The notes beneath the pieces were generated by a model. It searched no databases. It had not been told where the DNA came from and saw nothing but the letters and a program-made list of their open reading frames with translations. A stretch of 64,000 nucleotides of DNA from an uncultured Planctomycetales bacterium (lineage in GTDB: Bacteria; Omnitrophota; Gorgyraeia; Zapsychrales; JANLHA01): contig CAYVEC010000001.1 in assembly GCA_964450385.1 (NCBI GenBank), positions 97,104 to 161,103 of the forward strand. Reading direction: 5' to 3'. Shown here one piece after another: positions 668 to 48,296 of the stretch (within the stretch, counting starts at the first letter, position 1; each line of letters opens with the position of its first letter). Position numbers and translations under genes: made by a program.

Positions 668-843
668 CGGTGCGTCGGGCTGGCCGGGCCGTGTTTCCCT
701 GCCGGCGTCTTATTTCTTCTTGTTTCCCACCGTGTGATCATGCAGGAAAGCGCTTCCGCAAAACCCTGGTTGTCCCCTATTTTGTATGGGTTCTATACGG
801 TATACTCTTATTAGGATTTTTATCAAAGGTATAGGGGAGAGCC

Positions 844-3800
844 GTGTTCCAGCCAGCAGGCACACATCATCATCTGTTCCGCATCGGCACGTGGGTGACG
901 CTCGCCGCATTTCTTGGCGGGAGCGTGATCCCGCCGGGTGCCTCGCTCGCCCAGGGGGTGTCGGTTGCCGGGGTTGTCCTTCCGGCCCCGGGCACCATGG
1001 TGATGCCGACCCCAAGTTTTGCCCCGGCCGTGATGCGGGGCATTCGCATTTTTCCGAATGAGCCGCTCCGCTTCGATTTTATCATTGATACCGGCAACAC
1101 CGGATTTAATGATGAGGACTTTAAGTCGGAATCTGAACGATTGATCCGGTATTTTCTTGCCGCGGTAACGATCCCCGAAGATGACCTCTGGGTGAACCTT
1201 TCCCCGTATGAACAGGATCGGATCGTTCCGTCTGCCTTTGGCCAGACCGAGATGGGGCGCGACCTTCTCGCCCAGGACTATCTCTTGAAACAATTGACGG
1301 CCTCGCTGTTGTATCCGGAAAAAGACCTGGGCCATGAATTTTGGGAACGGGTGCGCGCGCGGGTGCGAGAACGGTTCGGGACCGCCGATGTCACGGTCAA
1401 TACGTTTAACAAGGTCTGGGTGATCCCGGACCGGGCGGTGGTCTACGAGAGCGGGGATGTGGCGTTTATCATGGAGAGTCATTTGAAGGTGATGCTCGAG
1501 GAGGATTATCTCGCGATGTCGGAGGCGCAGGCCTCCTCCGGCCGCTCCGCGACGAACAGTGCCGGAGCGGATCGCATGGGGCACGAGATCATCCGTGAGG
1601 TTATTCTGCCTGAGATCGAGCGCGAGGTGAATGAGGGGGCGCATTTCGTCTCGCTCAGGCAGATCTATCACTCGATGATCCTTGCGACATGGTTTAAACG
1701 GAATCTCCGTGCCAGCGTGCTCGGCCGGGTCTATGTCGAGCGGAACAAGATCGGCGGGGTGGAGATTGACGACGCAGAGGCGGGAAAGAAGATCTACGCC
1801 CAGTATTTGGCCGCCTTCAAAAAGGGGGCTTACAACTATATTAAAGAGGAGTATGACCGGACGACAGACCGGATGATCCCGAGGAAATATTTTTCCGGAG
1901 GGGTACGGTTTGGTCAGGCGACCGACAATGCGATGATCGTGGAATCGGGACCGGCTGAGGCGATGCTGAGTAAGGCGGCGGCGGCCGCGGCCGGACCGAT
2001 GACGACAGTGGAATCGGGGATGCGGGTCGTGAGGGATGAGGGGAGGCTGGGTGCGGGTGAAGGCGCTCGCGCGCCGGCCGAGGCATCGGTGGATAAGCCC
2101 GCCGATGAATCAACCCCGCGCCCCGAACCCCGCGCTGAAACAAGGACTGCTGACCGGTCTGTTGGGGAAACGCTGTCAGTCAGGCCAGAAACAGCCAACT
2201 CCGAGCGGGATGGACTGCGAGGCAATGATGGGGATAAATCGAATACCGTTTTTCAGGCGGAGGTTCCTTTACCTGAGTTCTTACGGGGTGTTGAAAATGA
2301 AAAAATCGGGAAATTCCTGCCTCGGCTATTGGAATCTATTCCTGAAGCACGGCGAGCTTTGGCAGAACAGGTCAGACATGTTTCAGACGGGAATCGGACA
2401 GGTCAAGAGTTTTCTATTGAAATGGAGACTCGGGATGCCCAATTGCTTATCTCTGTTCAATCAGGGGAGCGGTATAACACTGGTTATGGAGGGAACGTGG
2501 TCGTGCATACCCATCCCATCTTAAGACTCAGGGATAAAGATAATCAGGGGAAAAGAACTGGTATTGGTTATCGATCTATTCTAGATACTTTGTCACCCAC
2601 ACCTGATTCTTTTGATGTTTTTCGTCCGGGAATGATTGTTGCCGGGTCTGAGGCGACTGGTTATTTCGCATTGGTTTATGACTTATCAGAAACTGAGAAT
2701 AGACGTTGGTATGGTGAAATAGGTAGGCAGAAGGTCGCACGGCATGATAGACCAGGAAAAATCATTGAGCTTGGAGCGGGACAATTATTTAAGATTGTGC
2801 CTCAAGGTGATGAGGTCCAATTACAACCCATTTCGGTTGCCGAAACCGAAGTGAAATGGGGGGAAGTTCAGAGGGCGCCGGAAAAGAAACGGCAATTGGA
2901 GCTGGAATTAAACCTGCGCCCGCACCCCCAACATCCCAGTCAGCCTTTCCGTGCAGAATTCGGTGATGGGTTCAGGGAGGTTATGGCCTTCGTTACGAAT
3001 GGTGAATATTACCCCGTAGAGATTATAGGATATCAAAAAAACCCACGACAGGGAGTCCCGGATGGTTATACGCATTTACTGGACGTTGGAGGAACGGAAG
3101 GTTTCGATTATCGGTTCGTGACGCAAGGGCATGATAAGAATTCATCGAGGAGTAATCAATATTCAAATTTAGCGCGCTTGCAAGGCGTTCTGGCCCAGTT
3201 CGGCGTGGCAGTCTCAGTAATGCAGATAGAAGTTGGAACGAAAAATGTTCAAATCTATAAACCACACCTTACCTCAGTGGGAATTTCCCCCAAAAGCATA
3301 TCACAACTTCATGCGGATAGAGTCATCGAAGAACTGGCAAAGCTGCATGCCGCGGGTATCGTTCACAATGATTTGATTGGTGCTGGAAAGCATGCGGGGT
3401 TGAATTGGCAGAATGTGAAGTTTGAGATGGACTCGAAAACTCAATCTCCTGTGCGGGCTGTTTTTGATGGGTCTGGTTTTGAAAAAGCTGAGGCGTATTC
3501 ATTTGAGAACCGTTTTCTAGCGGATGAGTTTTATGCTGTTGCGGATGCGTTATTGAATGACCTGGATATAAATGATCCCCAAAATCGGGAAAAGATGACC
3601 AAAACATGGTTCGAAAGACACGAGAAAATAATCGGAACGGCCGGGACAAACCGCGCTGAAACCCGATCGCCCAACTTGGCCCCTGTGGGGGAAACCCGGT
3701 CTCCGATTGGGTCAGAAGGATACAATGCGGAAGCGCGTGCTGAAGTGCGTTCTGATACCCCAATTTCACACCGGGAGTTAACACTGGGTGTTGAAACGAG

Positions 3801-4707
3801 TCTGGCTGATCCAGATCGGCGGGAAGTGCGGGGGGATGTCACGGAAAGTTTATCGACGCTCGCTCCGGAGTGGGTGGAGATCGGTCTGAAATCCAATGTG
3901 CTGGTGCGGGATAAGGCAACGAAGGCATTGTCCTTCCGCAATAAAGCGGCCGGGGACGCATGGGCCGCGATGACGAGAAGTTCTTACGCAAGTTACAGCG
4001 TTACGGGGCTAATTGAGAAAGAATTTTCGACGAAGGTAAGCCCGGAACAACTGAAACAATTGATCCTGGCCGGGAGGGTGACTTTTGACGCGGATGTCGG
4101 AGCTTTCAGGGCTTCTGCTGCTGAAAAAGAAACCCGGATAGTTCTTGCCGATGGCCAAGGGTTAAGCTTAACGGAGGATGCCCTGGCCCTTCTTTATGAT
4201 AAGACGCATGCTCGGGATGAAGCTATGCCGGCGACGCTGATTGATGTCGCGGATCTTTCCAACCCCGAGACGCCGGCAAAACAACCGTTCAAGGCGGATG
4301 ACGTTCTAAGCATGATCCTCAAAAAGCAAGTCCCCGCCGGGGAAGTAATGCTCGCCCAACCCATGCCTGACGGTGAGGCCGGCGCCGCTCATCAAACAGC
4401 ACCGAAGGAGACAGATCCTGCCGCGTCAGGGTCTGATGCGGGGATGATATCGGCGGCTGATAAGGGAAAAACAGACGGTGGCGCGGCGCAGAATCCGGGC
4501 GGTATCGATTTGAATCCCGGGCACCTGGACCTGCAAACCCGGGGCGAGGGGATGGACGCGCTTCCGTGGGCGGATATCGAGTCGCTAGAGACCGTGCCGT
4601 TTGATGGTTTTGTCCCGGTGATTTTGAACGTTGTCCCGACGAATCTGCCGATGTTTATGGGTGCGGCCGGGGCTGGAAGCGAATTTGAATTAAGCCGCGT
4701 TCCCTGA
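844..4707 (+). CDS. Giant secreted multidomain protein (1287 aa) of unknown function; N-terminal Sec-type signal peptide, Ala/Glu/Arg/Pro-rich linker, central low-GC module with kinase-like motif
   Basis: Uninterrupted 3.86-kb ORF with GTG start after aggggagag. The N-terminus MFQPAGTHHHLFRIGTWVTLAAFLGGSVIPPGASLA-QG looks like a signal peptide. The central region (about 2230-3650) has visibly lower GC and AT-ending codons. A motif LHAAGIVHNDL...VFDGSGFE resembles the catalytic and Mg-binding loops of protein-kinase-like (APH/LPS-kinase) folds. No family recognised for the N- and C-terminal parts. Confidence 0.6.
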   Translation: MFQPAGTHHHLFRIGTWVTLAAFLGGSVIPPGASLAQGVSVAGVVLPAPGTMVMPTPSFAPAVMRGIRIFPNEPLRFDFIIDTGNTGFNDEDFKSESERLIRYFLAAVTIPEDDLWVNLSPYEQDRIVPSAFGQTEMGRDLLAQDYLLKQLTASLLYPEKDLGHEFWERVRARVRERFGTADVTVNTFNKVWVIPDRAVVYESGDVAFIMESHLKVMLEEDYLAMSEAQASSGRSATNSAGADRMGHEIIREVILPEIEREVNEGAHFVSLRQIYHSMILATWFKRNLRASVLGRVYVERNKIGGVEIDDAEAGKKIYAQYLAAFKKGAYNYIKEEYDRTTDRMIPRKYFSGGVRFGQATDNAMIVESGPAEAMLSKAAAAAAGPMTTVESGMRVVRDEGRLGAGEGARAPAEASVDKPADESTPRPEPRAETRTADRSVGETLSVRPETANSERDGLRGNDGDKSNTVFQAEVPLPEFLRGVENEKIGKFLPRLLESIPEARRALAEQVRHVSDGNRTGQEFSIEMETRDAQLLISVQSGERYNTGYGGNVVVHTHPILRLRDKDNQGKRTGIGYRSILDTLSPTPDSFDVFRPGMIVAGSEATGYFALVYDLSETENRRWYGEIGRQKVARHDRPGKIIELGAGQLFKIVPQGDEVQLQPISVAETEVKWGEVQRAPEKKRQLELELNLRPHPQHPSQPFRAEFGDGFREVMAFVTNGEYYPVEIIGYQKNPRQGVPDGYTHLLDVGGTEGFDYRFVTQGHDKNSSRSNQYSNLARLQGVLAQFGVAVSVMQIEVGTKNVQIYKPHLTSVGISPKSISQLHADRVIEELAKLHAAGIVHNDLIGAGKHAGLNWQNVKFEMDSKTQSPVRAVFDGSGFEKAEAYSFENRFLADEFYAVADALLNDLDINDPQNREKMTKTWFERHEKIIGTAGTNRAETRSPNLAPVGETRSPIGSEGYNAEARAEVRSDTPISHRELTLGVETSLADPDRREVRGDVTESLSTLAPEWVEIGLKSNVLVRDKATKALSFRNKAAGDAWAAMTRSSYASYSVTGLIEKEFSTKVSPEQLKQLILAGRVTFDADVGAFRASAAEKETRIVLADGQGLSLTEDALALLYDKTHARDEAMPATLIDVADLSNPETPAKQPFKADDVLSMILKKQVPAGEVMLAQPMPDGEAGAAHQTAPKETDPAASGSDAGMISAADKGKTDGGAAQNPGGIDLNPGHLDLQTRGEGMDALPWADIESLETVPFDGFVPVILNVVPTNLPMFMGAAGAGSEFELSRVP

Positions 4708-4732
4708 TCCATATGTCGTGGTCCGTCGCGTC

Positions 4733-5116
4733 TTAGGCCTCGTCAGCGTGAGGCTGTTGTGTGGCGTGGGTCTTGATCCGGCTGACCACGTCCTGGATGG
4801 TAAACGGTTTTTTCATGAAATCGGTCACGCCGATCTTACGAAATCCGGCCTCCATTTGACTGTTGCCCGTCATCATCACAAGCGGGATTGATTTGGTCTC
4901 CGGTTTGGCTTTTAGCCCCGTCAGGAAGTCGACCCCATCGGCATCCGGCATAAAAACGTCACAGAAGATGATGTCCGGTTTATGCAGGCCGATCTTCATC
5001 AGGGCATCTCTGCCGTTGTGGGCGATGAGGGCGTTATATCCTTCCTTGGACAGGCCGACCCTCATCATGGTTTGTGTGGTGTGGTCGTCATCAACGACCA
5101 TGACCCGAGTGCTCAT
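4733..5116 (-). CDS. Single-domain response regulator (CheY-like receiver)
   Basis: 127-aa translation MSTRVMVVDDDHTT...FCDVFMPDADG...MMTG...KKP carries the canonical receiver DD, D, T and K residues and has no output domain. Its start overlaps the 3' end of lpxB by 26 nt on the same strand. Confidence 0.8.
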   Translation of the reverse strand: MSTRVMVVDDDHTTQTMMRVGLSKEGYNALIAHNGRDALMKIGLHKPDIIFCDVFMPDADGVDFLTGLKAKPETKSIPLVMMTGNSQMEAGFRKIGVTDFMKKPFTIQDVVSRIKTHATQQPHADEA

Positions 5117-6305
5117 AGGCGCCTCCTTGTGGTTCGCGTTTGGGTGTAGGGTTATCGAGCTGTTCCGCCTCTAATGCCGAGAGGACGACCTGTGCCGCGC
5201 GTTCGCTGGCCCCATGATCACCGAGGCGGGTCCGGATCGCGCGTAATTCTTTTTTGGTTTCCTGAAATAACGACGGGTCCTGGTAGACCTTGAGGGCCTC
5301 GGCGGCGACCGTCTCGGCCGTGGCGCGTTCCTGGACGCATTCGGGAACGATCTCGCGGCCGGCAACGATATTGACCAGTCCGATATGCGGGATTTTGATG
5401 AGGCGCCGTGCGAGCACGCTTGTAAGCCAGGCGGTCTTGTAGAGGATCACCATGGGTTTTTCCAGGAGTGCAGTCTCAAGGGTGGCGGTGCCTGAGGTCA
5501 CAAGGCACATGTCAGCGGCGTTCACGGCATTGTAGAAATCGTTTTCGACCCGCGCGATTCGGAACGAACATCGCTGCTGAAAAGGCGTGATCCATTTGGT
5601 CTTGATGCTCGGGGCCTGGGTGAGAAGGAACTGGGCGCCGGGGACTTCACGGTGGATCATCTCAGCCGCCTCGATCATGACGGGGAGGAGTGCCGCGATC
5701 TCTTTTTTGCGTGATCCCGGAACGAGCCCGAAGATGGGGCGCGCGGGATCAAGTCCGTGCCGTTGGCAGAAGATCTCTTTCGGCGTGCGCGCGGTCACCG
5801 CGTCAACGAGCGGGTGGCCCACAAAGTCCACCGGGATGCCGCGGTCGGCATAAAATTTCTTTTCAAAATCGAAGAGCACCATCATCCGGTCCGTGACCTT
5901 CGGGACCAAGTAGGCGCGCCGTTCTTTCCAGGCCCAGACCTGGGGGGAGATGTAGTAGATGACCGTAATGCCGAGTTTTTTCAGCCGGGCGGCGAGCCGC
6001 AGGTTGAAGCCGGGATAATCCACGAGGATGATTGCGTCTGGCCGCAGGGTGCGGGCCTTATTGAGGAAGAGGTAAAAGAGGCGGGTGAGTTGGTGGCAGT
6101 GGGCAAGGACCTCAACAAAACCGATCACCGCGAGTTTTGTGAGGTCTGCGTAGATCTCAACCCCGCAGGCGCGCAGATGCTGTCCGCCCAGTCCGGAGAA
6201 TCGGACAGCGGGGTCGATCGCCTGGATGGCCTTTACGAGTCGCGCGGCGTGCAGGTCTCCGGAGACCTCGCCGGTGACGATCATAATATGTTTGGGTGTG
6301 GCCAT
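5091..6305 (-). CDS. lpxB: Lipid-A-disaccharide synthase
   Basis: 404 aa. The N-terminus IMIVTGEVSGDLHAARL..., ...YISPQVWAWKERR and overall collinearity match LpxB. The ATG is at 6305 (cat on + strand at 6303-6305). Confidence 0.9.
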   Translation of the reverse strand: MATPKHIMIVTGEVSGDLHAARLVKAIQAIDPAVRFSGLGGQHLRACGVEIYADLTKLAVIGFVEVLAHCHQLTRLFYLFLNKARTLRPDAIILVDYPGFNLRLAARLKKLGITVIYYISPQVWAWKERRAYLVPKVTDRMMVLFDFEKKFYADRGIPVDFVGHPLVDAVTARTPKEIFCQRHGLDPARPIFGLVPGSRKKEIAALLPVMIEAAEMIHREVPGAQFLLTQAPSIKTKWITPFQQRCSFRIARVENDFYNAVNAADMCLVTSGTATLETALLEKPMVILYKTAWLTSVLARRLIKIPHIGLVNIVAGREIVPECVQERATAETVAAEALKVYQDPSLFQETKKELRAIRTRLGDHGASERAAQVVLSALEAEQLDNPTPKREPQGGAYEHSGHGR

Positions 6306-11255: not shown

Positions 11256-11331
11256 GACCCACTAGCTCATCTGGTAGAGCACAGCCCTTTTAAGGCTGGT
11301 GTACCGCGTTCGAGTCGCGGGTGGGTCACCA
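11256..11331 (+). tRNA. tRNA-Lys (anticodon UUU)
   Basis: Hand-folded cloverleaf. The acceptor pair GACCCAC/GTGGGTC, D arm GCTC-ATCTGGTA-GAGC, anticodon stem CAGCC/GGCTG with loop CTTTTAA (TTT), T arm CCGCG-TTCGAGT-CGCGG, discriminator A and an encoded CCA are all present. Confidence 0.85.
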
Positions 11332-11411
11332 TGATTTGCCCTTTCTTGAGGCATCAGGGTCCGTCGACATCGTGGGCCCTGATGTCCGGGGAGGCGCCCA
11401 GGTCGTGGTGC

Positions 11412-11493
11412 GGGCGGATGGCGGAATTGGTAGACGCGCTAGTCTTAGGAACTAGTGGGGAAACTCATGGAGGTTCAAGTCCTCTTCCGCCCA
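11412..11493 (+). tRNA. tRNA-Leu (anticodon UAG), type II with long variable arm
   Basis: The acceptor pair GGGCGGA/TCCGCCC, anticodon stem CTAGT/ACTAG with loop CTTAGGA (TAG) and T arm GGAGG-TTCAAGT-CCTCT fold cleanly. The 13-nt variable arm forms GGG-GAAA-CUC. No CCA is encoded. Confidence 0.8.
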
Positions 11494-11552
11494 CTTATTT
11501 CAGGGAAGCGGCGTATCGTGTGGTATAATATCACACATCGCGTGGCACACAT

Positions 11553-11626
11553 GCGGCGGTAATTCAGTTGGCTAGAATGCCACCTTGCCAAGGTGGATGT
11601 CGTGGGTTCGAATCCCATCCGCCGCT
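11553..11626 (+). tRNA. tRNA-Gly (anticodon GCC)
   Basis: The acceptor pair GCGGCGG/CCGCCGC, D arm ATTC-AGTTGGCTA-GAAT, anticodon stem CCACC/GGTGG with loop TTGCCAA (GCC) and T arm GTGGG-TTCGAAT-CCCAT are all present. Confidence 0.85.
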
Positions 11627-38945: not shown

Positions 38946-40001
38946 ATGCGTGATTTTATATGGTCCATGATGACGGATCAGGGATCGGGTCTGGGGGTTC
39001 GTTTCGGCCAGGCTGTGTTATGGCTGTGTTCGATCGCTTATGGGGTGATTGTTCGGGGCCTTAGGTTTTTCTATTCTTCCGGAGTCCTGCCGTCGGTTTC
39101 TTTGCCCCGACCGGTCGTGTGTGTCGGCAATCTAACGATTGGGGGATCCGGGAAGACGCCCATGGTTGAATGGCTTGCGCGAGGCCTTGCCCGGCGCGGT
39201 CTTCGGCCAGCGGTCTTGACCCGAGGATATATGCCGCATGCTCAGGCGCCCGCGACGAGCGATGAGGCTGCTGAACTCGGCGAGGCCCTGCCAGGTATCA
39301 CGATGGCGGTGAATCCGGACCGTTCGGCTGGCGCTCGCGAGGCCTTGGGACGCGGGGAAGTCGATCTTTTTATTATGGATGATGGGTTTCAGCACTGGCG
39401 GGTCCGGCGGGATTGTGATGTGGTCGTGATCGATGCGATGAGCCCCTTTGGCAATCGACATGTTCTGCCGCGGGGGATCCTGCGTGAGCCGATCGGGGCG
39501 CTTGTCCATGCAGATGTCTTTGTGATCACCCGGTCAGACTTGGCCCCTGAAGGGGCGGCTTCTGTGAGGGCCTTTTTGAAAAAGACGTATCCGGGCCGGC
39601 TGATTATGATGACCCGACATCAGCCCGTTGCGGTTCGAGACCTGTCCTCGGGTAAGGAGGTCGGTCTTGAGGTGTTGAAGGGTCAGCGGGTTTGTGCTGT
39701 GGCTTCGATCGGGAACCCGGTCGGGTTTTATCGTACGATTGAACGGTTGGGCGTCGATATTGTGGATCGATATGAGAGGCCTGACCACCATGTTTATACG
39801 GCTGCTGAGGTTGATGCCTTGTGTTCGGGGCAAGGTGACCGGATTTTTATTACTACGATGAAGGATGCGGTTAAGCTTCGCGGGATTGTGCAGGAACGCT
39901 CGGCCGGCCAGGCCGGGACGTGGTATGCGCTCAAGATCGAGATTCGGACGGATGATGGTGAAGAACTCTTTAAAAAGATCTGCGGCCTGGCGGGCCGTTA
40001 A
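38946..40001 (+). CDS. lpxK: Tetraacyldisaccharide 4'-kinase
   Basis: ...VVCVGNLTIGGSGKTPMVEWLARGL... P-loop and LpxK collinearity; 351 aa. Confidence 0.9.
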   Translation: MRDFIWSMMTDQGSGLGVRFGQAVLWLCSIAYGVIVRGLRFFYSSGVLPSVSLPRPVVCVGNLTIGGSGKTPMVEWLARGLARRGLRPAVLTRGYMPHAQAPATSDEAAELGEALPGITMAVNPDRSAGAREALGRGEVDLFIMDDGFQHWRVRRDCDVVVIDAMSPFGNRHVLPRGILREPIGALVHADVFVITRSDLAPEGAASVRAFLKKTYPGRLIMMTRHQPVAVRDLSSGKEVGLEVLKGQRVCAVASIGNPVGFYRTIERLGVDIVDRYERPDHHVYTAAEVDALCSGQGDRIFITTMKDAVKLRGIVQERSAGQAGTWYALKIEIRTDDGEELFKKICGLAGR

Positions 40002-41943
40002 TGCTGCGGGCGGGTGCCTTCGGGCGCTGCCGTATGCCTGGGCCTGCCGGCTGGGGGCTGTTGCAGGGTATTTGATGTATTTGGTCGACGTCAGGCATCG
40101 GCGTCAGGTGTATCAGAATCTGAAGATCGCCTTTGGCCCGACAGCGTCGCGGCAGTCGCTTGCGCGTTGGACGCGTCAGTTTTTTATTCATTTTGGGATG
40201 AACATCGCGGAGTTCCTCTGTCTTCCATCGATGACCCCTGAGCGGGTTCAGACGTTGGTGACGGTGGAGCGGGGCGACCTGGTCGATGCCGCCGTGGCCC
40301 AGGGCAAGGGGCTCATTTTTTTGACGATGCATAACGGGAATTGGGAGATCCTCAGCCTGCGCGGCCGGTTAATGGTCGGCGATTACAACGTGATTTATAA
40401 GACGCAGAACCGGGATCGGGTCTTTGATTCGCTGATCTATGAGTATCGAATGCAGGCGCATATGGCCTGCGGCGGGGTCACTTTGTTTGAGCGGGGTGAG
40501 GGCGCGCGTGACCTCATGAGAGCTCTCCGGGATCGTGGGACGGTTGGTATTGTTTTTGATCAAGGAGGGAAGGAAGGGACGCCGGTTCATTTTTTCGGCC
40601 GTGAGGCGCGTTTTGCCGCGGGTGCCGTTCGATTGGCCTTGGCCACGGGCGCCCCGTTGTGTTTGGCAGCGATTCATCGTCAGGACGGCACGGGGCATCA
40701 TTGCATGACCGTGAAAAAGGTGATCTCGTGCGTCGCGAGCGGAGACCGTGACGCGGACGTCGCCCGGTACCTTCAGGAATGTGTGGCCTCGTATGAAGAG
40801 GAGATCCGCGCCTATCCGCAGGAATATATGTGGATGTATAAGATCTGGCGCTTTGATCCAGGGCGCCGGGTCCTGATCCTTGATGACGGCCGGACCGGGC
40901 ATCTCCGCCAGTCGGAGGCCGTGGCGGATCAGGTCCGGCGCCGTTTTGCCGAGCTGGGTTATCGCACAACGATCGAGGTGACCAAGGTCCCATATCATTT
41001 CCCTATCTTTCGGTTTATCGCGAATCTCTTGGGGCTTGTGGGCTGGGTTCTGCCCCGTTCGGTCTCGGGGATGTTTCTCTCTTGGCTTGTGAGCGACGAG
41101 GTGTTTAACGCTGTTTTTTCTCGACCGGCGGATGTGATCATTTCCTGCGGGTCGATGACCGGGGCGGTGAATTTGCTCCTGAGCCGTGAACATGAGGCGA
41201 TCAATATCGGGATCCTGCGTCAGGGGATATTGCCCGGTGGGTTCTTTAGCGCACTTGTCCTGCCCCAGCATGACTGCCCCGCAGCTCGTCGAGGGGTCAT
41301 CGTGACGCGCGGGGCGCCCAATTCGATCAATGCCGAATATCTCGCGGCCCAGGGGGAGGGGCTGCTCACCCGTTTTTCTCACTTAAGGGGGCACCACAAA
41401 TATCGGATCGGGATCCTTTTGGGGGGGGACACAAAAGAATATTCCCTTGACGAGGGATTGGTCCGGGCGGTGATCCATCAGGTCCAGGAGGTCGCGCGTG
41501 AGATCGATGCCGAGATCCTGATCACGACCTCGCGGCGGACATCGTCCGCGGTGGAGCGGGTCGTGCTGGCGGCGTGTAAGAACGATCCGCGGTGCGCGCT
41601 TGTCATCATCGCGAATAAAAAGAATGTGCCGGAGGCGATGGGGGGGATCTTGGCGCTCTCGGACCTCGTCGTAGTGTCGAGCGACAGTATCTCGATGGTC
41701 TCGGAGGCGGCCTCCTCTGGAAAAAAGACGGTCGTCTTTTCGGTTCAGCCGCATGAGCCGGGCCGGCCGCGGAACAAGCATCATGCTTTTGTCGACGGCC
41801 TGAACGCCGAGGGGTATGTTCTGTCATCGGATGCCCAGAACATGGCGGCCTCGATCTATAATTTGGTCAAAGAAAAGATCTCTCTGAAGACCCTCGATGA
41901 TCATGAGCGGATTTATCAGGGGTTACGGGAGATCGTGAGGTAA
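39952..41943 (+). CDS. Fusion protein: lipid A biosynthesis lauroyl/myristoyl acyltransferase (LpxL/HtrB-like) + ELM1/DUF1022 predicted glycosyltransferase domain
   Basis: The N-terminal about 300 aa carry the LPLAT/LpxL motif ...LIFLTMHNGNWEIL... (H-x4-[DE]). The C-terminal about 350 aa start ...VLILDDGRTGHLRQSEAVADQV..., typical of ELM1/DUF1022 proteins often encoded next to kdtA. The start is uncertain: the MM at 39952 was chosen, giving a 50-nt overlap with lpxK, while the listed ORF starts at 39865. Confidence 0.7.
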   Translation: MMVKNSLKRSAAWRAVNAAGGCLRALPYAWACRLGAVAGYLMYLVDVRHRRQVYQNLKIAFGPTASRQSLARWTRQFFIHFGMNIAEFLCLPSMTPERVQTLVTVERGDLVDAAVAQGKGLIFLTMHNGNWEILSLRGRLMVGDYNVIYKTQNRDRVFDSLIYEYRMQAHMACGGVTLFERGEGARDLMRALRDRGTVGIVFDQGGKEGTPVHFFGREARFAAGAVRLALATGAPLCLAAIHRQDGTGHHCMTVKKVISCVASGDRDADVARYLQECVASYEEEIRAYPQEYMWMYKIWRFDPGRRVLILDDGRTGHLRQSEAVADQVRRRFAELGYRTTIEVTKVPYHFPIFRFIANLLGLVGWVLPRSVSGMFLSWLVSDEVFNAVFSRPADVIISCGSMTGAVNLLLSREHEAINIGILRQGILPGGFFSALVLPQHDCPAARRGVIVTRGAPNSINAEYLAAQGEGLLTRFSHLRGHHKYRIGILLGGDTKEYSLDEGLVRAVIHQVQEVAREIDAEILITTSRRTSSAVERVVLAACKNDPRCALVIIANKKNVPEAMGGILALSDLVVVSSDSISMVSEAASSGKKTVVFSVQPHEPGRPRNKHHAFVDGLNAEGYVLSSDAQNMAASIYNLVKEKISLKTLDDHERIYQGLREIVR

Positions 41944-41949
41944 TTATTT

Positions 41950-44064
41950 ATGCGCGTGATGCAGATTTTGCCAGAACTTCAGGTGGGCGGGGTCGAGACC
42001 GGGACGGTTGATTTTGCCAAATACCTTCAGCGTCACGGCCATTATAACATTGTCGTTTCGCACGGAGGACGGATGGTCGCGGAGCTCGAGCGGCACGGGA
42101 TCCCGCATTATACCCTGCCGGTTCATAAAAAAAATCTGTTCACGGCGTGGAAGGCGGTCTCCGATGTCCGCGCCTTGATCATCCGGGAGCGGATCGATAT
42201 TGTGCATGCGCGCTCGCGGGTGCCGGCCTGGATCGCCTATTTCGCCTGCCGCGGGACATCCGCCCAATTTATCACGACCTGTCACGGCCATTATTCGGTT
42301 CAGTTCTTTTCGCGGGTGATGGGCTTCCCGAAGCTGATCATTGTGCCGAGCCGCGTCATCGGGCGGCATATGATCGATGCGTTCCATGTCGCGCCAGAGG
42401 CGGTCCGGTGCATTCCGCGCAGTGTCGATCAGAATCGTTTTAAACGGCGGGAGCAGGAGGCCCTCAATCGGTCGTATGCCGTGGTCACGATCGTCGGGCG
42501 GCTGTCGCCTATTAAAGGGCATACGTATTTTCTCAAGGCCATGGCGAAGGTTGTTCGGTCCATGCCCTATGTTCGTGTCCGGATCGTTGGGGATGTGGCG
42601 CCTCACAAAGAGTCGTACCGCCAGGAATTGGAGGTCCTGACCCGGCACCTCGGACTGGTGGCGCAGGTTGAATTTCTCGGTGACCGTCAGGATGTCCCGG
42701 AGATCCTTGCCGAGAGCGATGTCCTTGTCATGGCTTCGGTCGTGCCGGAGGCCTTCGGCCGCGTGATCCTTGAGGCCCAGGCCGTCGGTGTCCCGGTGGT
42801 CGCCACGGATGTGGGCGGGGTGGGGGAGGTTATTGAGCACGGCAAGACGGGTCTGTTGGTCCTGCCGCGCGATACGGACGCTATGGCCCAGGCTGTTTTG
42901 CGGATACTCAATGAACCGAAACTGGCCCGCGAGATGGTGGCCGCGGCATGGCGAAAGATCGATGATCAGTACACGCTTGAGCATATGGCCAGCCGGACCG
43001 TCGGGGTTTATGAGGAGCTGCTGAATCGGCAGAATATCTTGGTTATTAAACTCGGGGCCCTGGGGGATGTCGTGTTGATTACGGCATCGTTAAAGGCCTT
43101 GCGAAAGAAATTTCCGCAGGCGAAGATATCCTGCCTTGTCGGGGAGGCCTCGAAGGAGGTTCTTCAGAAGTGCGCTTCGATCGATGAGATGATCGTGGTG
43201 GATTTGAAGGGCCGGCATCGGGGGTGGCTTGGCGTGATTGCGATGGGCCGGCGCCTGGCTCAATGTCATTTTGACCGGGTTGTGGATTTTCAAAATAATG
43301 CCCGAAGTCATGTCCTGGCGGCCCTCACCGGTGCGGTCCATACCTATGGGTTCCGCAATCGCAAGCTCGGTTTTTTGTTGACCGATCCGGTTGAACAGGT
43401 CAATGATGATCTGCCGCCGGTTGAGCATCAGTTTCAGATTCTCAAATTATTGGGGATTGAGTATCAGGATGAGGTCGCCCTTGATGTCTCGATCTCTGAG
43501 CGAGATCGGAAGCGGGCCCAGGAGCTTCTCGCCGCGGAATGGATCACCGACGGGGTGCGGATGGTCGGGATGAATGTTGCAGCCTCGCCGCAATGGGTGA
43601 CGAAAAATTGGCCCGCGGCGTCGATGGCGCGGCTGTGCGATCTGTTGGCCTCGCGGAATCTTCGCGTGGCCTTGACGGGAACCGACAAAGACCGGGCAAC
43701 GGCCCAGGAGGTCCTTCGGTTGAGCCGGAGTAAACCCGCGGATCTGACCGGAAAGACAACGATCATGGAATTGTGCTGGATCATCAAGCGGTGTGAGGCC
43801 TATGTCTCTCCTGATTCCTGTCCGCTCCATCTCGCGGCCGCGATGCGAACACCGTTTGTCGCGTTATTTGGTCCGACATCATCACGGCGTCATCTGCCGC
43901 CGGGGCGGGGGGTTGTTCATGAGCGGTCAATGGCCTGCGCCCCATGCTATGAAAAATTTTGTAAGGAGGCGACGCATGCCTGTATGACGTCGATCTCGCC
44001 CGAAGAGGTCGCGGACTCGATCTATTCGTTTGTATCAAAGGAACACGGAAGAGGGGAGGCATGA
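41950..44064 (+). CDS. Bifunctional glycosyltransferase: N-terminal GT4 (GT-B, family 1 fold) domain fused to C-terminal GT9 heptosyltransferase-like domain
   Basis: Residues 1-350 have the GT4 E-x7-E region ...EAFGRVILEAQAVGVPVVATDVGGVGEVIEHGKTGLL.... Residues from about 360 start ...ILVIKLGALGDVVLITASLKALRKKFPQAKISC..., the GT9 (WaaC/WaaF) N-terminal signature. Confidence 0.8.
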   Translation: MRVMQILPELQVGGVETGTVDFAKYLQRHGHYNIVVSHGGRMVAELERHGIPHYTLPVHKKNLFTAWKAVSDVRALIIRERIDIVHARSRVPAWIAYFACRGTSAQFITTCHGHYSVQFFSRVMGFPKLIIVPSRVIGRHMIDAFHVAPEAVRCIPRSVDQNRFKRREQEALNRSYAVVTIVGRLSPIKGHTYFLKAMAKVVRSMPYVRVRIVGDVAPHKESYRQELEVLTRHLGLVAQVEFLGDRQDVPEILAESDVLVMASVVPEAFGRVILEAQAVGVPVVATDVGGVGEVIEHGKTGLLVLPRDTDAMAQAVLRILNEPKLAREMVAAAWRKIDDQYTLEHMASRTVGVYEELLNRQNILVIKLGALGDVVLITASLKALRKKFPQAKISCLVGEASKEVLQKCASIDEMIVVDLKGRHRGWLGVIAMGRRLAQCHFDRVVDFQNNARSHVLAALTGAVHTYGFRNRKLGFLLTDPVEQVNDDLPPVEHQFQILKLLGIEYQDEVALDVSISERDRKRAQELLAAEWITDGVRMVGMNVAASPQWVTKNWPAASMARLCDLLASRNLRVALTGTDKDRATAQEVLRLSRSKPADLTGKTTIMELCWIIKRCEAYVSPDSCPLHLAAAMRTPFVALFGPTSSRRHLPPGRGVVHERSMACAPCYEKFCKEATHACMTSISPEEVADSIYSFVSKEHGRGEA

Positions 44065-45175: not shown

Positions 45176-46206
45176 TGCAGAGGCTCTTGGTGGTCAATGT
45201 CAATTGGATCGGTGATGTTGTTATGACGACGCCGGTCTTTCGGGCGTTGCGCCGCGAGTTTCCTTCGGCCTGGATCGCCTGCCTGGCGATGCCTCGGGTC
45301 ATCCCCGTCTTAGAATGTTGTCCTGAGATCGATGAGATCATCGTGAATGATGAGGAGGGCCGGCATCATGGGATCATCGGCATGGGGCGGCTTGTCCTGG
45401 CCGTACGGAAGAAACGTTTCGATGCGGTTTTTTTGCTTCATCGTTCCCGCACGCGCGCGGCGTTGATGTTCTTGGCAGGGATCCCGGTCCGGGTCGGTTA
45501 CAATGTTAAGCGCCTGGGCCCGCTCTTGACCCATGTGGTTGATCCCCTCGCTGGGGATGGTCATAAACGCGATCATTATTGTCAGGTTCTTGAATCGTTC
45601 GGCATTCCGGTTCCGGACCGGGTTACCCAGCTTGTCGTTCCGGAAAAAGAGCGCTCGGAGATCGCCTCGATCCTGCGGGCCCGAGGTATCGGCGAGGATG
45701 AGTCGGTCGTGGTCCTTCACGTTGGCGCGAATTGGGAGCTTAAACGCTGGCCGACCGAGCATGTGGTCCGCCTGATCCGACTGCTTCAAGGACGGACACG
45801 GATGAAGATTATTTTAAGCGGGGGAAAGGCGGACGAGGCGCTGGCCCGTTCGATCCTGGCCGGACTGAATGGAGGGGTCGTGTCGTTCACCGGCCAGTTG
45901 AGCCTCCGTCAGCTTGTTGCCTTGCTCGGCCGGGCCGCGGTTGTGGTCTCGGGTGATTCAGGACCCATGCATATCGCAAGCAGTGTGGGGGCCAACGTCG
46001 TTGCTGTCTTTGGTCCGACGAGTCCCGAGCATTCTGGGCCCTGCGGCCCGGGTGCGCACCAGGTCCTGCGGCACCAGTTTGAATGCAACCGCTATCCGTG
46101 TTATGAGGTGACCTGTGATCATCACCGCTGCATGCGTGATGTGACCCCGGATGAGGTTTGTGAGGCGGTGGTTCGGATGATCTCGATCGGGGAGGGGGGG
46201 CGATGA
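45172..46206 (+). CDS. ADP-heptose:LPS heptosyltransferase (GT9)
   Basis: ...LLVVNVNWIGDVVMTTPVFRALRREFP... is the GT9 signature. The start overlaps the upstream stop. Confidence 0.85.
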   Translation: MMQRLLVVNVNWIGDVVMTTPVFRALRREFPSAWIACLAMPRVIPVLECCPEIDEIIVNDEEGRHHGIIGMGRLVLAVRKKRFDAVFLLHRSRTRAALMFLAGIPVRVGYNVKRLGPLLTHVVDPLAGDGHKRDHYCQVLESFGIPVPDRVTQLVVPEKERSEIASILRARGIGEDESVVVLHVGANWELKRWPTEHVVRLIRLLQGRTRMKIILSGGKADEALARSILAGLNGGVVSFTGQLSLRQLVALLGRAAVVVSGDSGPMHIASSVGANVVAVFGPTSPEHSGPCGPGAHQVLRHQFECNRYPCYEVTCDHHRCMRDVTPDEVCEAVVRMISIGEGGR

Positions 46207-47213
46207 GACGGGTGAATCCTGCGAGGGTAAAAAAGATTCTGCTCATTACCTTGAGTAATCTCGGCGATGTTGTGTTGACCTTTCCTGTGCTCGATATCCT
46301 TTTGCGTGATTTTCCTCAGGCCGAGATCTCGGTCGTGTTGGGACCAAAAACAAAGGGACTGCTGATTGATCACCCTCGGATCAAAAATATTTATATTTAT
46401 CACAAGCATGATTCGTGGGGGCAAAAGTTCCGGTGGGCCCTTGAACTGCGAAAGGTCGGTTTTGATTTTGTTGTTGACCTTCGGCATGGCGTCTTGCCAC
46501 TCCTGATCGGCGCGCGTTATATGACCCCGTTGATCCGTCGGCGTGGCGAGGGTCATATGAAAGAGAAGCATCTGGCCTGTCTCTTGCAGATTCATCCTGT
46601 TCAACCCGCGGAAGATTGCGGGGCGCTTTTTATTTCGGATGGGGACCGGGCACAGGTGCGGCAATATCTTGCCGGCATTATCACAGCTCAGGATCGGTAT
46701 CTGGTCATCGCCCCTGGGGCTGCCGATCATCGCAAACGTTGGACTGAGGAGGGTTTTGCTGAGGTCGCGGACTGGGTGGTCCAGCAGTACGGATTAAAAG
46801 TCGTTTTTGTTGGTCTTTCTGAGGAGACCGTCCTCATTGAACGGATCCAGGCGCGGATGCGGATGACCTCACTGAATCTGGCTGGCCGTTTGAGCCTGAT
46901 TCAAGTGGCATGTCTGCTGCAGCAGGCCTCGCTCGCCGTGATGAATGACAGCGGGCTCATGCATCTCTCGAGCTATCTTGATGTCCCGACGGTCGCGGTG
47001 TTCGGCCCGACCGACCCGGCACGGGTTTTTCCCTGGGCCTCGCGCGCGGCTTTCGTGCGCTGTCATGAAGCATGTGCGGCCTGCACCGCTGGAGATCGAA
47101 CAAGTTTTGAACACACGTGCATGGCTGCGGCATCCGGGGCCATCGTGAAACAGCGGGTTGATGAGATATTACAGGGCACGATGAAAGGGCGCGATGCAGG
47201 GCAACGGGGTTGA
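46203..47213 (+). CDS. ADP-heptose:LPS heptosyltransferase (GT9)
   Basis: ...ILLITLSNLGDVVLTFPVLDILLRDFP... is the GT9 signature. 4-nt overlap with the upstream gene. Confidence 0.85.
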   Translation: MRRVNPARVKKILLITLSNLGDVVLTFPVLDILLRDFPQAEISVVLGPKTKGLLIDHPRIKNIYIYHKHDSWGQKFRWALELRKVGFDFVVDLRHGVLPLLIGARYMTPLIRRRGEGHMKEKHLACLLQIHPVQPAEDCGALFISDGDRAQVRQYLAGIITAQDRYLVIAPGAADHRKRWTEEGFAEVADWVVQQYGLKVVFVGLSEETVLIERIQARMRMTSLNLAGRLSLIQVACLLQQASLAVMNDSGLMHLSSYLDVPTVAVFGPTDPARVFPWASRAAFVRCHEACAACTAGDRTSFEHTCMAAASGAIVKQRVDEILQGTMKGRDAGQRG

Positions 47214-48249: not shown

Positions 48250-48296
48250 TAGAATCAGTCCCTCTTTTCTTATTAGTAATATAAAAGGAGTGGCCG

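What the first reader, a model, noticed from the sequence alone, without database searches (positions are those of the whole stretch)
844..4707. Giant secreted protein carrying an in-frame, compositionally foreign ~1.4-kb cassette with a kinase-like motif, facing a CheY-like regulator
The 1287-aa ORF begins with a plausible Sec signal peptide and has no family I can recognise. Its central part (about nt 2230-3650, residues about 463-936) is visibly lower in GC than the flanks: roughly mid-40s% against more than 60% for the neighbouring codons, by eye. It also uses AT-ending codons (tta/ttg Leu, aaa, gaa, att, aat) that are rare elsewhere in this window, so the shift is in codon choice and not only in amino-acid composition. 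An AT-rich stretch staying open for about 470 codons is unlikely by chance, so it is coding. Inside the cassette the motif AKLHAAGIVHNDLIGAGKHAGLNW...AVFDGSGFEKAE resembles the catalytic-loop (H-x-D-L) and DFG-like Mg site of protein-kinase-like folds (APH / Kdo-WaaP LPS kinases / RIO). An upstream HTHP...SPTPDSFD stretch is weakly reminiscent of a JAB/RadC HxHP...PTPSxxD metal site, but with a long insertion. The cassette is preceded by an Ala/Glu/Arg/Pro-rich low-complexity linker. A single-domain response regulator is encoded convergently 26 nt downstream. This looks like a chimeric, possibly horizontally assembled, secreted or surface enzyme-like protein in an otherwise housekeeping, LPS-centred neighbourhood.
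Basis: partly seen in the sequence, partly recalled or inferred. Interest (0 to 1): 0.7.

Follow-up and report, generated by a model that had tools for sequence, protein, structure and literature searches.

The report
Omnitrophota scaffold protein with imported cargo
This gene belongs to a very large, apparently undescribed family of exported Omnitrophota proteins that keep the same head and tail but swap the middle, and here the middle is a recently imported, extremely rare two-domain cassette, one domain of which has a protein-kinase-like fold.

The parts
844..4707 (+). Whole ORF, 1287 aa: signal peptide, N module, linker, cargo (domain A, domain B, orphan region), C module
844..951 (+). Sec-type signal peptide (residues 1-36, predicted cleavage after ASLA, before Q37)
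   Evidence: The only strongly hydrophobic segment of the protein. The family-wide [ASVGT]x[AS]Q signature follows an uncharged run in 91 of 120 members. The AF2 model has a helix at 9-28. SignalP could not be run.
952..1938 (+). Conserved N-terminal family module (residues ~37-365; motifs WVNLSPYE, TEMGRDLLAQDY, NTFNKVWIVP, PRKYFSGG). GC3 matches the host genome.
1939..2274 (+). Low-complexity Ala/Glu/Gly/Arg/Pro-rich linker 1 (residues 366-477). It contains the left compositional boundary.
2134..3816 (+). Compositionally foreign tract (codons 431-991, GC3 0.42 against 0.72 upstream and 0.70 genome background)
   Evidence: Change-point analysis. Background distribution. Codon switch.
2275..2943 (+). 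Cargo domain A (residues ~478-700): rare domain with invariant N..T..E, HTHP (nt 2506-2517), L.P[ST], G.IV.G and G.F. Fold relative unresolved.
   Evidence: Matched on its own by P0121/P0126, P0123 and P0125 in the exhaustive search. AF2 pLDDT 80-95 over most of it. No PDB sequence hit, no Pfam hit. hhalign against RadC/YicR gives 0.7%.
2944..3651 (+). Cargo domain B (residues ~701-936): Bud32/RIO/Kdo-type protein-kinase-like fold. HND at nt 3364-3372, Asn 857 of WQNVKF, Asp 875 of FDG at nt 3466-3468. Gln 761 (nt 3124-3126) occupies the expected beta3-Lys position.
2128..2145 (+). Linker motif PRAETR (R-x-E-[TV]-R), copy 1, at the left GC3 change-point
3649..3666 (+). Linker motif NRAETR, copy 2, immediately after domain B. 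Its 12 nt CCGCGCTGAAAC are identical to copy 1.
3736..3750 (+). Linker motif RAEVR, copy 3
3817..3831 (+). Linker motif RREVR, copy 4, at the right GC3 change-point
3844..4263 (+). Orphan region 3 (residues ~1001-1140, flanked by linkers at 937-1000 and 1141-1214). No detectable homologue. GC3 intermediate (~0.5-0.6).
   Evidence: No hit in the word-indexed search of 5.8 billion proteins. Not covered by any of the 119 top family members. GC3. No structure was predicted for it.
4486..4677 (+). Conserved C-terminal family module (residues ~1215-1278; GGIDLNP...L.LQ...GF.PVI..V.P). GC3 matches the host genome.
   Evidence: Present in about 110 of 119 top homologues and always within 0-67 residues of the C-terminus. 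Co-evolves with the N module, Mantel r 0.36, p 0.001. No Pfam, NCBIfam or PDB match.

Best explanation
ORF 844-4707 encodes a Sec-exported member of a very large, Omnitrophota-restricted family of modular proteins. Each member is built as signal peptide, a conserved ~330-aa N-terminal module (no recognisable fold relative), a linker, variable cargo, a linker, and a conserved ~60-aa C-terminal module.

In this gene the cargo slot has been refilled, recently on an evolutionary scale, with about 1.7 kb of DNA from a lower-GC relative (nt 2134-3816). The insert brought its own R-x-E-[TV]-R linkers and a very rare two-domain cassette. Domain A has an invariant HTHP motif and unknown activity. Domain B has a Bud32/RIO/Kdo-type kinase fold without the usual beta3 lysine, so it is probably a pseudokinase or an unconventional nucleotide-binding domain. 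An orphan ~140-aa region follows.

Shown: the architecture, the family, the compositional break, the kinase-like fold, the rarity of the cassette, and its presence in two different kinds of carrier protein.

Inferred:
1. The replacement happened by recombination in the linkers, with both terminal modules kept.
2. The head and tail modules carry out a common export, localisation or anchoring step for whatever cargo lies between them, placing it in the envelope, on the surface, or in a host or prey cell.
3. The cassette binds or modifies a target rather than acting as a standard protein kinase.
For: Family and architecture:
- 4798 of the 8000 scored candidates match at E <= 0.001. The top 119 share only residues ~25-360 (119 of 119) and ~1215-1275 (about 110 of 119), always at the two extreme ends.
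- The middles carry unrelated Pfam domains: phosphoglucomutase, PGI, PGK, GNAT, PP2C, HATPase_c, HEAT, TPR, LysM, glycosyltransferases, Pkinase, radical SAM, NUDIX and others.
- At least 576 N-module loci occur in species-representative genomes. All 80 listed come from Omnitrophota MAGs, some auto-labelled Planctomycetales, with several copies per genome and 17 of 81 loci holding two or more copies.

Export:
- The signal-peptide signature is conserved across the family, and there is no other transmembrane-like segment.

Import of the cargo:
- GC3 is 0.72 | 0.42 | 0.60 along the gene, with sharp change-points, against a host background of 0.70 +/- 0.05, and codon choice switches.
- The N and C modules are host-like.
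- In P0002, on a 40%-GC contig, the same cassette has the same GC3 as its own N and C modules: 0.34 against 0.38 and 0.41.
- Across 35 family genes the termini track the host GC3 (+0.02, not significant), while the middles are lower (-0.058, p 0.002). In 14% the middle is more than 0.15 below background.
- N and C modules co-evolve, Mantel r 0.36, p 0.001, which fits replacement of the middle only.

Cassette:
- An exhaustive HMMER scan of 1.84 billion representatives found only 5 other proteins, each matching one half only.
- The complete cassette occurs in P0002 (36% identity) and in the 6263-aa P0126 (43% over 483 aa).
- The R.E[ASTVM]R linker motif is enriched in the query (4 observed, 0.1 expected), in P0126 (19 vs 0.7) and in P0123 (7 vs 0.3), but not in other carriers. 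The stricter R[SA]E[VTA]R form is absent from the other 119 family members. This marks the insert's lineage.

Kinase-like fold.

Catalytic-site variation.
Against: - No experiment or expression data bear on export, localisation or activity. SignalP and DeepTMHMM were not available.
- Much of the family's cargo is typical cytoplasmic, ATP- or sugar-phosphate-dependent enzymes. That sits awkwardly with plain periplasmic or surface localisation.
- The variable middles are on average slightly AT-shifted across the whole family. Part of the shift could therefore reflect a family-wide evolutionary regime rather than a single import event.
- No donor was identified. The closest cassette copy is only 43% identical.
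- No recurrent neighbouring gene such as a secretion or processing partner was found, so nothing links the scaffold to a particular machinery.
- The fold of domain A and the structures of the C module and of region 3 were not resolved.
- The claim that the family is undescribed rests on Pfam, NCBIfam, PHROGs, PADLOC and a search limited to open-access papers and bioRxiv.
Confidence: 0.72

Rival explanations
1. Metagenome assembly chimera. The AT-rich middle comes from a different, lower-GC Omnitrophota population and was joined in silico to this contig through the family's conserved modules.
For: The sequence comes from a MAG contig (P0001 is recorded once, on a 167-kb NCBI contig). The family is multi-copy and present in many co-occurring Omnitrophota. 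The composition break is abrupt.
Against: Both junctions lie in non-conserved linkers, not in the conserved modules where shared k-mers could mislead an assembler. Two independent in-frame joins would be needed, and the reading frame runs uninterrupted into a host-like C module. At the DNA level even the conserved N module of P0002 matches the query only in short stretches of 73-87% identity. Other family genes in independent assemblies show the same pattern of host-like termini and an AT-shifted middle.
Confidence: 0.05
2. There was no recent transfer. The low GC3 is a native property of fast-evolving cargo regions in this family, for example through weaker codon selection or less GC-biased gene conversion than in the recombining terminal modules.
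For: Across 35 family genes the variable middles are on average 0.058 lower in GC3 than their genomic background, while the termini are not. Region 3 of the query has an intermediate GC3 of about 0.6.
Against: The query's cassette is 0.29 below background, about 5.8 SD from the mean of the window's other genes. The change-points are sharp. Rare codons that are absent from the N part (TTA, ATA, AGA) are used. The cassette's sequence is conserved at 36-43% identity between distant carriers, so it is not freely drifting. In a 40%-GC genome the same cassette is compositionally unremarkable.
Confidence: 0.12
3. The protein is not secreted. The N-terminal hydrophobic segment is an uncleaved membrane anchor, and the N and C modules tether cytoplasmic-type enzymes at the inner membrane. 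The family would then be a membrane-scaffolded set of metabolic and signalling enzymes.
For: The family's cargo is dominated by enzymes that need ATP, nucleotide sugars or sugar phosphates: PGM, PGK, PGI, PPDK_N, HATPase_c, radical SAM, NUDIX. [quoted passage not shown]
Against: Positive charges lie before the hydrophobic segment (3.1 K+R against 0.23 D+E in the first 15 residues), and a conserved AxA-Q signal-peptidase-type site follows it. By the positive-inside rule this places the body of the protein outside the cytoplasmic membrane. No second transmembrane segment could bring it back.
Confidence: 0.12
4. The cassette is an active effector pair: a JAB-type metallo-isopeptidase (domain A) and an active atypical kinase (domain B), delivered to a host or prey cell.
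For: Domain A keeps an invariant Glu, HTHP and a downstream P[ST]..D, arranged like the JAMM/RadC motif. Domain B in the query keeps the HxD Asp, an Asn and the FDG Asp. Bud32 and RIO kinases are active despite minimal architecture (established knowledge). Omnitrophota are proposed predators or parasites (PMC10066038).
Against: hhalign of the domain A profile against a RadC-like JAB protein gives 0.7% and aligns only 11 residues. No JAB or RadC Pfam hit appears even at E <= 10. The expected beta3 Lys is Gln or Leu in all three cassette copies. The catalytic Asp is Asn in P0002, and the DFG Asp is Glu in P0126. This is the pattern expected of pseudokinases.
Confidence: 0.12

Closest known systems
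Archaeovorins and 'multi-enzyme' giant proteins of Omnitrophota (West-Roberts et al. 2023, bioRxiv 10.1101/2023.11.21.568195; bioRxiv 10.64898/2026.06.07.730766)
   Same: Same phylum. Same unusual cargo repertoire: HEAT, TPR, HATPase_c, GNAT, radical SAM, NUDIX, PPDK_N, phosphoglucomutase, starch-synthase-type glycosyltransferases, kinases. Predicted signal peptides or extracytoplasmic location. The query's complete A+B cassette also sits inside a 6263-aa multidomain protein (P0126).
   Different: Those papers treat proteins of at least 10,000 aa or at least 30,000 aa with many transmembrane helices and a conserved upstream T2SS-like locus. This family has a median of about 1460 aa (range 695-3200 in the loci examined), one signal peptide and no other transmembrane segment, and no recurrent neighbour. 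It is defined by conserved N- and C-terminal modules that I did not find mentioned in the passages and sections I searched and read in either paper. P0126 has a different N-terminus.
Cargo proteins with a C-terminal sorting domain, such as type IX secretion substrates (signal peptide, variable passenger, conserved ~80-aa CTD)
   Same: A Sec signal peptide, a highly variable passenger and a short conserved domain at the extreme C-terminus, shared by many paralogues per genome.
   Different: No sequence match to any curated sorting domain (Pfam and NCBIfam give 0 hits). T9SS is a Bacteroidota system (established knowledge). Here a large conserved N-terminal module is also obligatory. No secretion machinery is linked. 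This is an analogy of architecture only.
Polymorphic toxin and effector families (Rhs, CDI, MAFB and similar) with swappable modules
   Same: Multi-copy family in which a conserved trafficking part is recombined with diverse, often horizontally exchanged and compositionally deviant modules.
   Different: In those systems the variable toxin is C-terminal and is followed by an immunity gene. Here the variable part is internal, between two conserved ends. The cargo is mostly housekeeping-type enzymes and repeats rather than toxins. No immunity-like neighbour or PADLOC hit was found.
Bud32/PRPK, RIO and Kdo/WaaP atypical kinases (protein-kinase-like superfamily)
   Same: Domain B has the small bilobal kinase-like fold. 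It matches Bud32 across the alphaC-to-catalytic-loop region, including LH..G..H.DL. Its relatives pass weak Pfam Kdo and Pkinase matches.
   Different: The query itself reaches no Pfam kinase threshold. It has an insertion between HxD and the Asn. Gln sits at the position aligned with the Thr-Lys of its relatives. The context is extracytoplasmic, and there are no KEOPS, ribosome-biogenesis or LPS-kinase partners.
RadC-like JAB/MPN domains
   Same: A Glu, then a strand ending in H-x-H-P, then P-[ST]-x-x-D, then an I-V-x-G strand. The order of elements is the same as in RadC/YicR (and my reading of the YicR sequence fetched).
   Different: A roughly 25-residue insertion separates HxHP from P[ST]..D. 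There is no profile or Pfam similarity. The fold comparison was swamped by kinase hits. Membership is not established.

Membership tests
   Residues ~25-360 align to 119 of 119 top hits at 50-58% identity, and 39 columns are invariant across 68 aligned sequences.
   Residues 1215-1278 align to about 110 of 119 hits, always 0-67 residues from the end.
   Residues 400-1200 are covered by 0-3 of the 119 hits, and the hits carry dozens of different Pfam domains.
   The rule-based signature (basic n-region, uncharged run of at least 15 residues, [ASVGT]x[AS]Q) is present in the query and in 91 of 120 members. No dedicated predictor or experiment was available.
Protein-kinase-like superfamily (Bud32/RIO/Kdo/APH type) | Bilobal protein-kinase-like fold | tested here: met
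Protein-kinase-like superfamily (Bud32/RIO/Kdo/APH type) | Significant sequence-profile similarity to known kinases | tested here: met
   The 5-sequence profile hits Bud32 8unk_B at 6.5e-6, 9x4g_B at 1.1e-5, and 2vwb and 3en9 at 3e-5. The query alone has no Pfam hit.
Protein-kinase-like superfamily (Bud32/RIO/Kdo/APH type) | Catalytic loop HxD, catalytic Asn and metal-binding DFG Asp | tested here: met
   The query has H841-N-D843, N857 and D875 (FDG). These residues vary among the cassette copies: P0002 has HGN and P0126 has FEG.
Protein-kinase-like superfamily (Bud32/RIO/Kdo/APH type) | ATP-anchoring beta3 lysine | tested here: not met
   The position aligned with the Thr-Lys of P0122 and P0124 is Gln 761 in the query, Gln in P0126 and Leu in P0002. 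This is alignment-based, so a displaced lysine as in WNK kinases is not excluded.
JAB/MPN (RadC-like) metalloenzymes | JAMM motif E...HxH...S/T-x-x-D with the usual spacing | tested here: inconclusive
   E522, H555 and H557 are invariant and P[ST] follows, but the spacing is about 25 residues longer and the Asp position is not fixed.
JAB/MPN (RadC-like) metalloenzymes | Profile or HMM similarity to JAB/RadC families | tested here: not met
   hhalign against E. coli YicR gives probability 0.7% over 11 columns. No Pfam JAB, RadC or Prok-JAB hit at E <= 10 in any of 5 members. No PDB sequence hit.
JAB/MPN (RadC-like) metalloenzymes | MPN fold | not testable with these tools
   Only the two-domain model could be searched, and kinase hits fill the lists.
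Archaeovorin-type giant proteins | Very long ORF (tens of thousands of residues) with many transmembrane helices | tested here: not met
   1287 aa. The only strongly hydrophobic segment is the signal peptide.
Archaeovorin-type giant proteins | Conserved T2SS/T4P-like locus upstream and pilZ or carbohydrate-import genes downstream | tested here: not met
   The neighbours are DUF2238, a response regulator, lpxB, an msbA-like gene and rpsB. The only pilus-related gene in the part of the window annotated (about 1-48 kb) is a prepilin peptidase 27 kb away. There is no recurrent neighbour in 80 family loci.
Curated C-terminal sorting domains (T9SS CTD, PEP-CTERM, autotransporter barrel and similar) | Match to a curated model of the sorting domain | tested here: not met
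   Pfam and NCBIfam give 0 families at E <= 1 for the whole protein.
Polymorphic toxin or anti-phage defence systems | C-terminal toxin with a cognate immunity gene, or a match to known defence proteins | tested here: not met
   The variable part is internal. PADLOC gives 0 hits. The downstream gene is a response regulator that is not conserved with the family.

The most novel reading that the evidence does not exclude
The N/C-bookend family is a phylum-wide delivery platform. Through it, ultra-small and putatively predatory or parasitic Omnitrophota would export dozens of cytoplasmic-type enzymes and signalling domains beyond their own membrane, possibly into host or prey cells. The head and tail modules (a fold with no known relative, plus a terminal tag) would serve as the common recognition and translocation device. 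Cargo cassettes would be traded between these mid-sized carriers and the giant Archaeovorin-type genes. The peptide-level R-x-E-[VT]-R linkers that bracket cassettes in some lineages would be processing sites that release individual cargo domains.
Probability: 0.15. Interest if true: 0.85.

Novelty: new variant of a known kind. Interest (0 to 1): 0.62.

Why it matters
Omnitrophota are widespread, uncultured, ultra-small bacteria thought to live on other cells, and attention so far has gone to their giant genes. This window points to a much more numerous class of mid-sized exported proteins with a fixed head and tail and a freely exchanged middle. There are thousands of members and several per genome. 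They are absent from Pfam, NCBIfam, PHROGs and PADLOC, and the head module has no fold relative in the PDB.

If the scaffold is a localisation or delivery device, it gives a simple sequence handle for listing the exported 'toolkit' of any Omnitrophota genome. It would also explain why cytoplasmic-type enzymes carry signal peptides in this phylum. The family is a tractable, about 1-kb-scale model for how the giant proteins are assembled and perhaps processed.

The gene studied here is a clear case of cargo replacement. Its termini are host-like, its insert is foreign, and the same cassette occurs in another carrier and in a 6263-aa protein. The cassette itself adds two very rare domains, one of them a probably inactive Bud32-like kinase fold, to the list of unexplored protein families.

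Tried and rejected
1. Cassette-only and region-3-only word-indexed homology searches found nothing. The first even missed P0002, so those negatives are weak. The exhaustive HMMER scan replaced it for the cassette.
2. A flanking DNA direct repeat as an insertion scar. A 12-nt exact repeat and a 19-nt repeat at 84% identity bracket the cassette, but about 1% of random segment pairs within the ORF score as well. In P0123 the motif copies use different codons. So this is a peptide motif, not a DNA site.
3. The AE[TV]R / R.E.R motif as a family-wide junction. It is not enriched in the 119 family members and is confined to the query, P0123 and P0126.
4. JAB/RadC identity of domain A. It is not supported by Pfam, PDB sequence search or hhalign.
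5. Functional link to the convergent CheY-like regulator or to lpxB and msbA. Synteny is not conserved, and RR hits in other loci are generic (24-39% identity) and not adjacent.
6. A dedicated neighbouring secretion or processing gene. The commonest neighbour cluster occurs in only 7 of 80 loci.
7. A mobile element next to the gene. None was found. The nearest recombinase is a Xer-type gene 32 kb away, and the tRNAs lie at 11.2-11.6 kb.
8. Paralogues within the window: none.
9. Promoter and terminator scans around the gene did not exceed shuffles.
11. DNA of P0126 could not be fetched, so its composition is unknown. The query protein was not retrievable by exact look-up.
The cargo list rests on the precomputed Pfam column.

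Full report
**1. The observation**

The ORF at 844-4707 on the + strand starts with GTG and encodes 1287 aa. Homologues begin with the same 'MFQ...' N-terminus, which supports the start.

GC3 in 50-codon windows is 0.72-0.82 over codons 150-300. It falls to 0.26-0.48 over codons 450-900 and returns to 0.70-0.74 in the last 90 codons. The 363 windows of 150 codons taken from the other 45 long ORFs of the window give 0.70 +/- 0.05 and never drop below 0.50.

Synonymous codon choice switches between the N part and the cassette: TTA 0 to 9, ATA 0 to 6, AGA 0 to 7, GGT 2 to 16, GTT 4 to 17, CTC 11 to 1, GGC 11 to 2.

A change-point model, best by BIC with three segments, gives the following.

| Codons | Window nt | GC3 |
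|---|---|---|
| 1-430 | 844-2133 | 0.72 |
| 431-991 | 2134-3816 | 0.42 |
| 992-1287 | 3817-4704 | 0.60 |

All the quoted motifs, the low-complexity linker and the convergent single-domain response regulator at 4733-5116 are present.

**2. The protein has a family, and the family explains the chimerism**

Pfam, NCBIfam, PADLOC and PHROGs give no hit on the full protein. A search of 5.8 billion proteins returned 4798 matches among the 8000 candidates scored. Nearly all that carry a name are from Candidatus Omnitrophota.

I mapped the top 119 onto the query.
- All 119 cover residues ~25-360, at 50-58% identity.
- About 110 cover residues ~1215-1275.
- Almost none cover residues 400-1200.
- In every protein the first block sits at the extreme N-terminus and the second lies within 0-67 residues of the C-terminus.

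The middles are 300 to more than 1700 residues long and carry unrelated Pfam domains. These include phosphoglucomutase, glucose-6-phosphate isomerase, phosphoglycerate kinase, PPDK_N, GNAT, PP2C, HATPase_c, Pkinase, HEAT, TPR, LysM, glycosyltransferases, radical SAM, NUDIX, metallophosphatase, DnaJ and others.

All 80 loci listed are from Omnitrophota MAGs, some auto-labelled Planctomycetales. Genomes hold several copies, and 17 of 81 loci hold two or three within 20 kb. Median length is 1463 aa, range 695-3200. The window itself holds only this one copy.

**3. The terminal modules**

The N-terminus has a basic n-region, an uncharged stretch and a conserved [ASVGT]x[AS]Q site, which is ASLA|Q in the query. 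This signature is present in 91 of 120 members, with 3.1 K+R against 0.23 D+E in the first 15 residues. The query has no other transmembrane-like segment. By the positive-inside rule the body of the protein should lie outside the cytoplasmic membrane. This is an inference, since no predictor or experiment was available.

N- and C-module distances correlate across 103 proteins (Mantel r 0.36, p 0.001). The two ends therefore tend to stay together while the middle changes.

No neighbouring gene recurs. The commonest neighbour cluster is in 7 of 80 loci. The lpxB, msbA and response-regulator context of the window is not conserved.

**4. The cassette**

Only P0002 among the top hits shares the middle. 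It is a 1003-aa family member that matches query residues 485-930 at 36% identity.

An exhaustive HMMER search of 1.84 billion representative proteins with a profile of the two copies found five further proteins. Three match only the first half and two match only the second half. The cassette is therefore two separable and very rare domains.

P0121, the closest relative of domain A, is a contig-truncated fragment. Its cluster-mate P0126 (6263 aa) contains the complete A+B cassette at residues 1146-1620. It is 43% identical over 483 aa, E 4e-106, and sits among many other domains behind a different N-terminus.

*Domain B (residues ~701-936).*
- A 5-sequence profile hits Bud32/KEOPS kinases (E 6.5e-6 to 3e-5) and then a long series of protein kinases across the alphaC-to-catalytic-loop region.
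- Relatives hit Pfam Kdo/WaaP and Pkinase weakly.

Catalytic residues are less convincing.

| Position | Query | P0126 | P0002 | Kinase-like relatives (P0122, P0124) |
|---|---|---|---|---|
| Expected beta3 Lys | Gln 761 | Gln | Leu | Thr-Lys |
| HxD catalytic loop | HND (841-843) | HGD | HGN | HGD / HND |
| Catalytic Asn | Asn 857 | Asn | Asn | His / Asn |
| DFG Asp | FDG (Asp 875) | FEG | FDG | FIDF / FIDY |

I infer an atypical or inactive kinase-like domain.

*Region 3 (937-1215).* It has no detectable homologue.

**5. Origin of the insert**

P0002 lies on a 40%-GC contig. Its GC3 is uniform: N module 0.38, cassette 0.34, C module 0.41. The cassette is therefore compositionally native in a low-GC Omnitrophota and foreign here.

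Across 35 family genes with at least 6 kb of flanking coding sequence:
- the N module tracks the host GC3 (+0.02 +/- 0.08, not significant);
- the C module does too (+0.01);
- the middles are lower (-0.058 +/- 0.10, p 0.002);
- 14% of the middles are more than 0.15 below background.

Extreme cases exist, for example L055 with N 0.73, middle 0.33 and C 0.77. The query, at -0.22 for the whole middle and -0.29 for the cassette, is in the upper tail of a family-wide pattern. The simplest explanation is repeated import of cargo into resident scaffolds. A family-specific mutational or selective regime may contribute.

An assembly chimera is unlikely. It would need two in-frame joins, and both would lie in non-conserved linkers. 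Only read mapping can exclude it.

**6. A linker motif that marks the insert**

The peptide R-x-E-[ASTVM]-R occurs four times in the query:
- PRAETR, residues 429-434
- NRAETR, residues 936-941
- RAEVR, residues 965-969
- RREVR, residues 992-996

All four lie in the linkers flanking the cassette. The first and last coincide with the two GC3 change-points.

Against shuffles the motif is enriched in the query (4 observed, 0.1 expected), in P0126 (19 vs 0.7, including copies on both sides of its cassette) and in P0123 (7 vs 0.3, at domain boundaries). It is not enriched in P0002, P0122, P0125 or P0127. Neither the looser AE[TV]R-type patterns nor the stricter R[SA]E[VTA]R form are found in excess in the other 119 family members, and no ORF in the 81 loci has two or more copies of the strict form.

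In P0123 the copies use different codons, so the conservation is at the peptide level. The 12-nt identity between the first two copies in the query is only marginally significant.

I take this as evidence that the insert came with its own linkers from a P0126/P0123-type multidomain gene. Whether the motif is a processing site is open. The shuffle test ignores the local Arg/Glu richness of linkers.

**7. Literature**

I searched and read parts of two preprints and one paper on Omnitrophota giant proteins: 10.1101/2023.11.21.568195, 10.64898/2026.06.07.730766 and PMC10066038. The two preprints describe the same unusual domain repertoire in ORFs of at least 10,000 aa or more than 90,000 bp. They debate extracellular against membrane-anchored cytoplasmic localisation and possible proteolytic processing. 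The passages I saw do not mention the conserved N- and C-terminal modules or this mid-sized family. The search covers only open-access PMC papers and bioRxiv, so 'undescribed' is provisional.

**8. Verdict**

This is a real, intact gene for an exported modular protein of an Omnitrophota-specific family. Its cargo slot holds a recently imported cassette made of an HTHP domain and a Bud32-like, probably non-canonical, kinase-fold domain.

The family context is the main result. The kinase is probably not a standard enzyme, the JAB link is unsupported, and the CheY-like neighbour is incidental.

What the scaffold does (localisation, anchoring or delivery) is inferred from architecture only.

Noticed in passing
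window 2128-2145, 3649-3666, 3736-3750, 3817-3831; also P0126 (19 copies) and P0123 / L083 (7 copies): A short peptide motif, R-x-E-[ASTVM]-R (RAETR, RAEVR, RSEVR), punctuates inter-domain linkers in a few Omnitrophota multidomain proteins. It brackets the A+B cassette in both the query and the 6263-aa P0126. It is conserved at peptide level, not DNA level. It could be a processing site, but this is unproven.
   Followed up: partly
L002-L081 (80 family loci), e.g. L055 10001-13600, L053, L052: Across the family the variable middles have lower GC3 than both their own terminal modules and the flanking genes (mean -0.06, extreme cases -0.3 to -0.4), while the termini match the host genome. This suggests frequent cargo import, or a distinct evolutionary regime for cargo.
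   Followed up: partly
L005, L007, L008, L011, L015, L016, L018, L020, L035, L036, L046, L048, L052, L053, L064, L067, L075: 17 of 81 loci hold two or three family genes within 20 kb, so paralogues are often adjacent. In L053 two copies lie directly upstream of rpsB, which loosely resembles the window's arrangement.
   Followed up: no
variable regions of P0002-P0120: The tetrapeptides SSPV, SSPI, ASSP and DAAM are 20-30 times over-represented in the linkers of family members. A D-x-A-M-[IV]-V element follows the N module in many of them (DNAMIV at residues 361-366 in the query). Their meaning is unknown.
   Followed up: no
window 4707-5116 and 5091-6305 (- strand): The response-regulator gene overlaps the 3' end of lpxB by 26 nt on the minus strand, so they probably form one operon. 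It ends 25 nt from the stop codon of the family gene, with no convincing terminator between the convergent genes.
   Followed up: partly
window 39865-41943 and 41950-44064: Two fused LPS-core genes. One joins a lipid A acyltransferase domain to a Mito_fiss_Elm1 (PF06258) domain. The other joins a GT4 glycosyltransferase to a GT9 heptosyltransferase. Three further GT9 paralogues follow.
   Followed up: no
window 46203-49328: After the cassette, this glycosyltransferase stretch has the lowest GC3 in the window: 0.58-0.60 per gene, with 150-codon windows down to 0.50. It may be a second, older acquisition within the LPS-core cluster.
   Followed up: no
P0122, P0124/P0127, P0123, P0121/P0126 (not in the window): The few other carriers of domain A or domain B are all large multidomain proteins that also contain a GHKL-type HATPase_c domain or further kinase-like domains. 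P0122 combines a glutamate-dehydrogenase domain with two copies of the domain-B-type kinase fold.
   Followed up: partly
window 11256-11626: A cluster of three tRNA genes (Lys-TTT, Leu-TAG, Gly-GCC) between frr and the PTS EIIA gene. It is unrelated to the finding.
   Followed up: no
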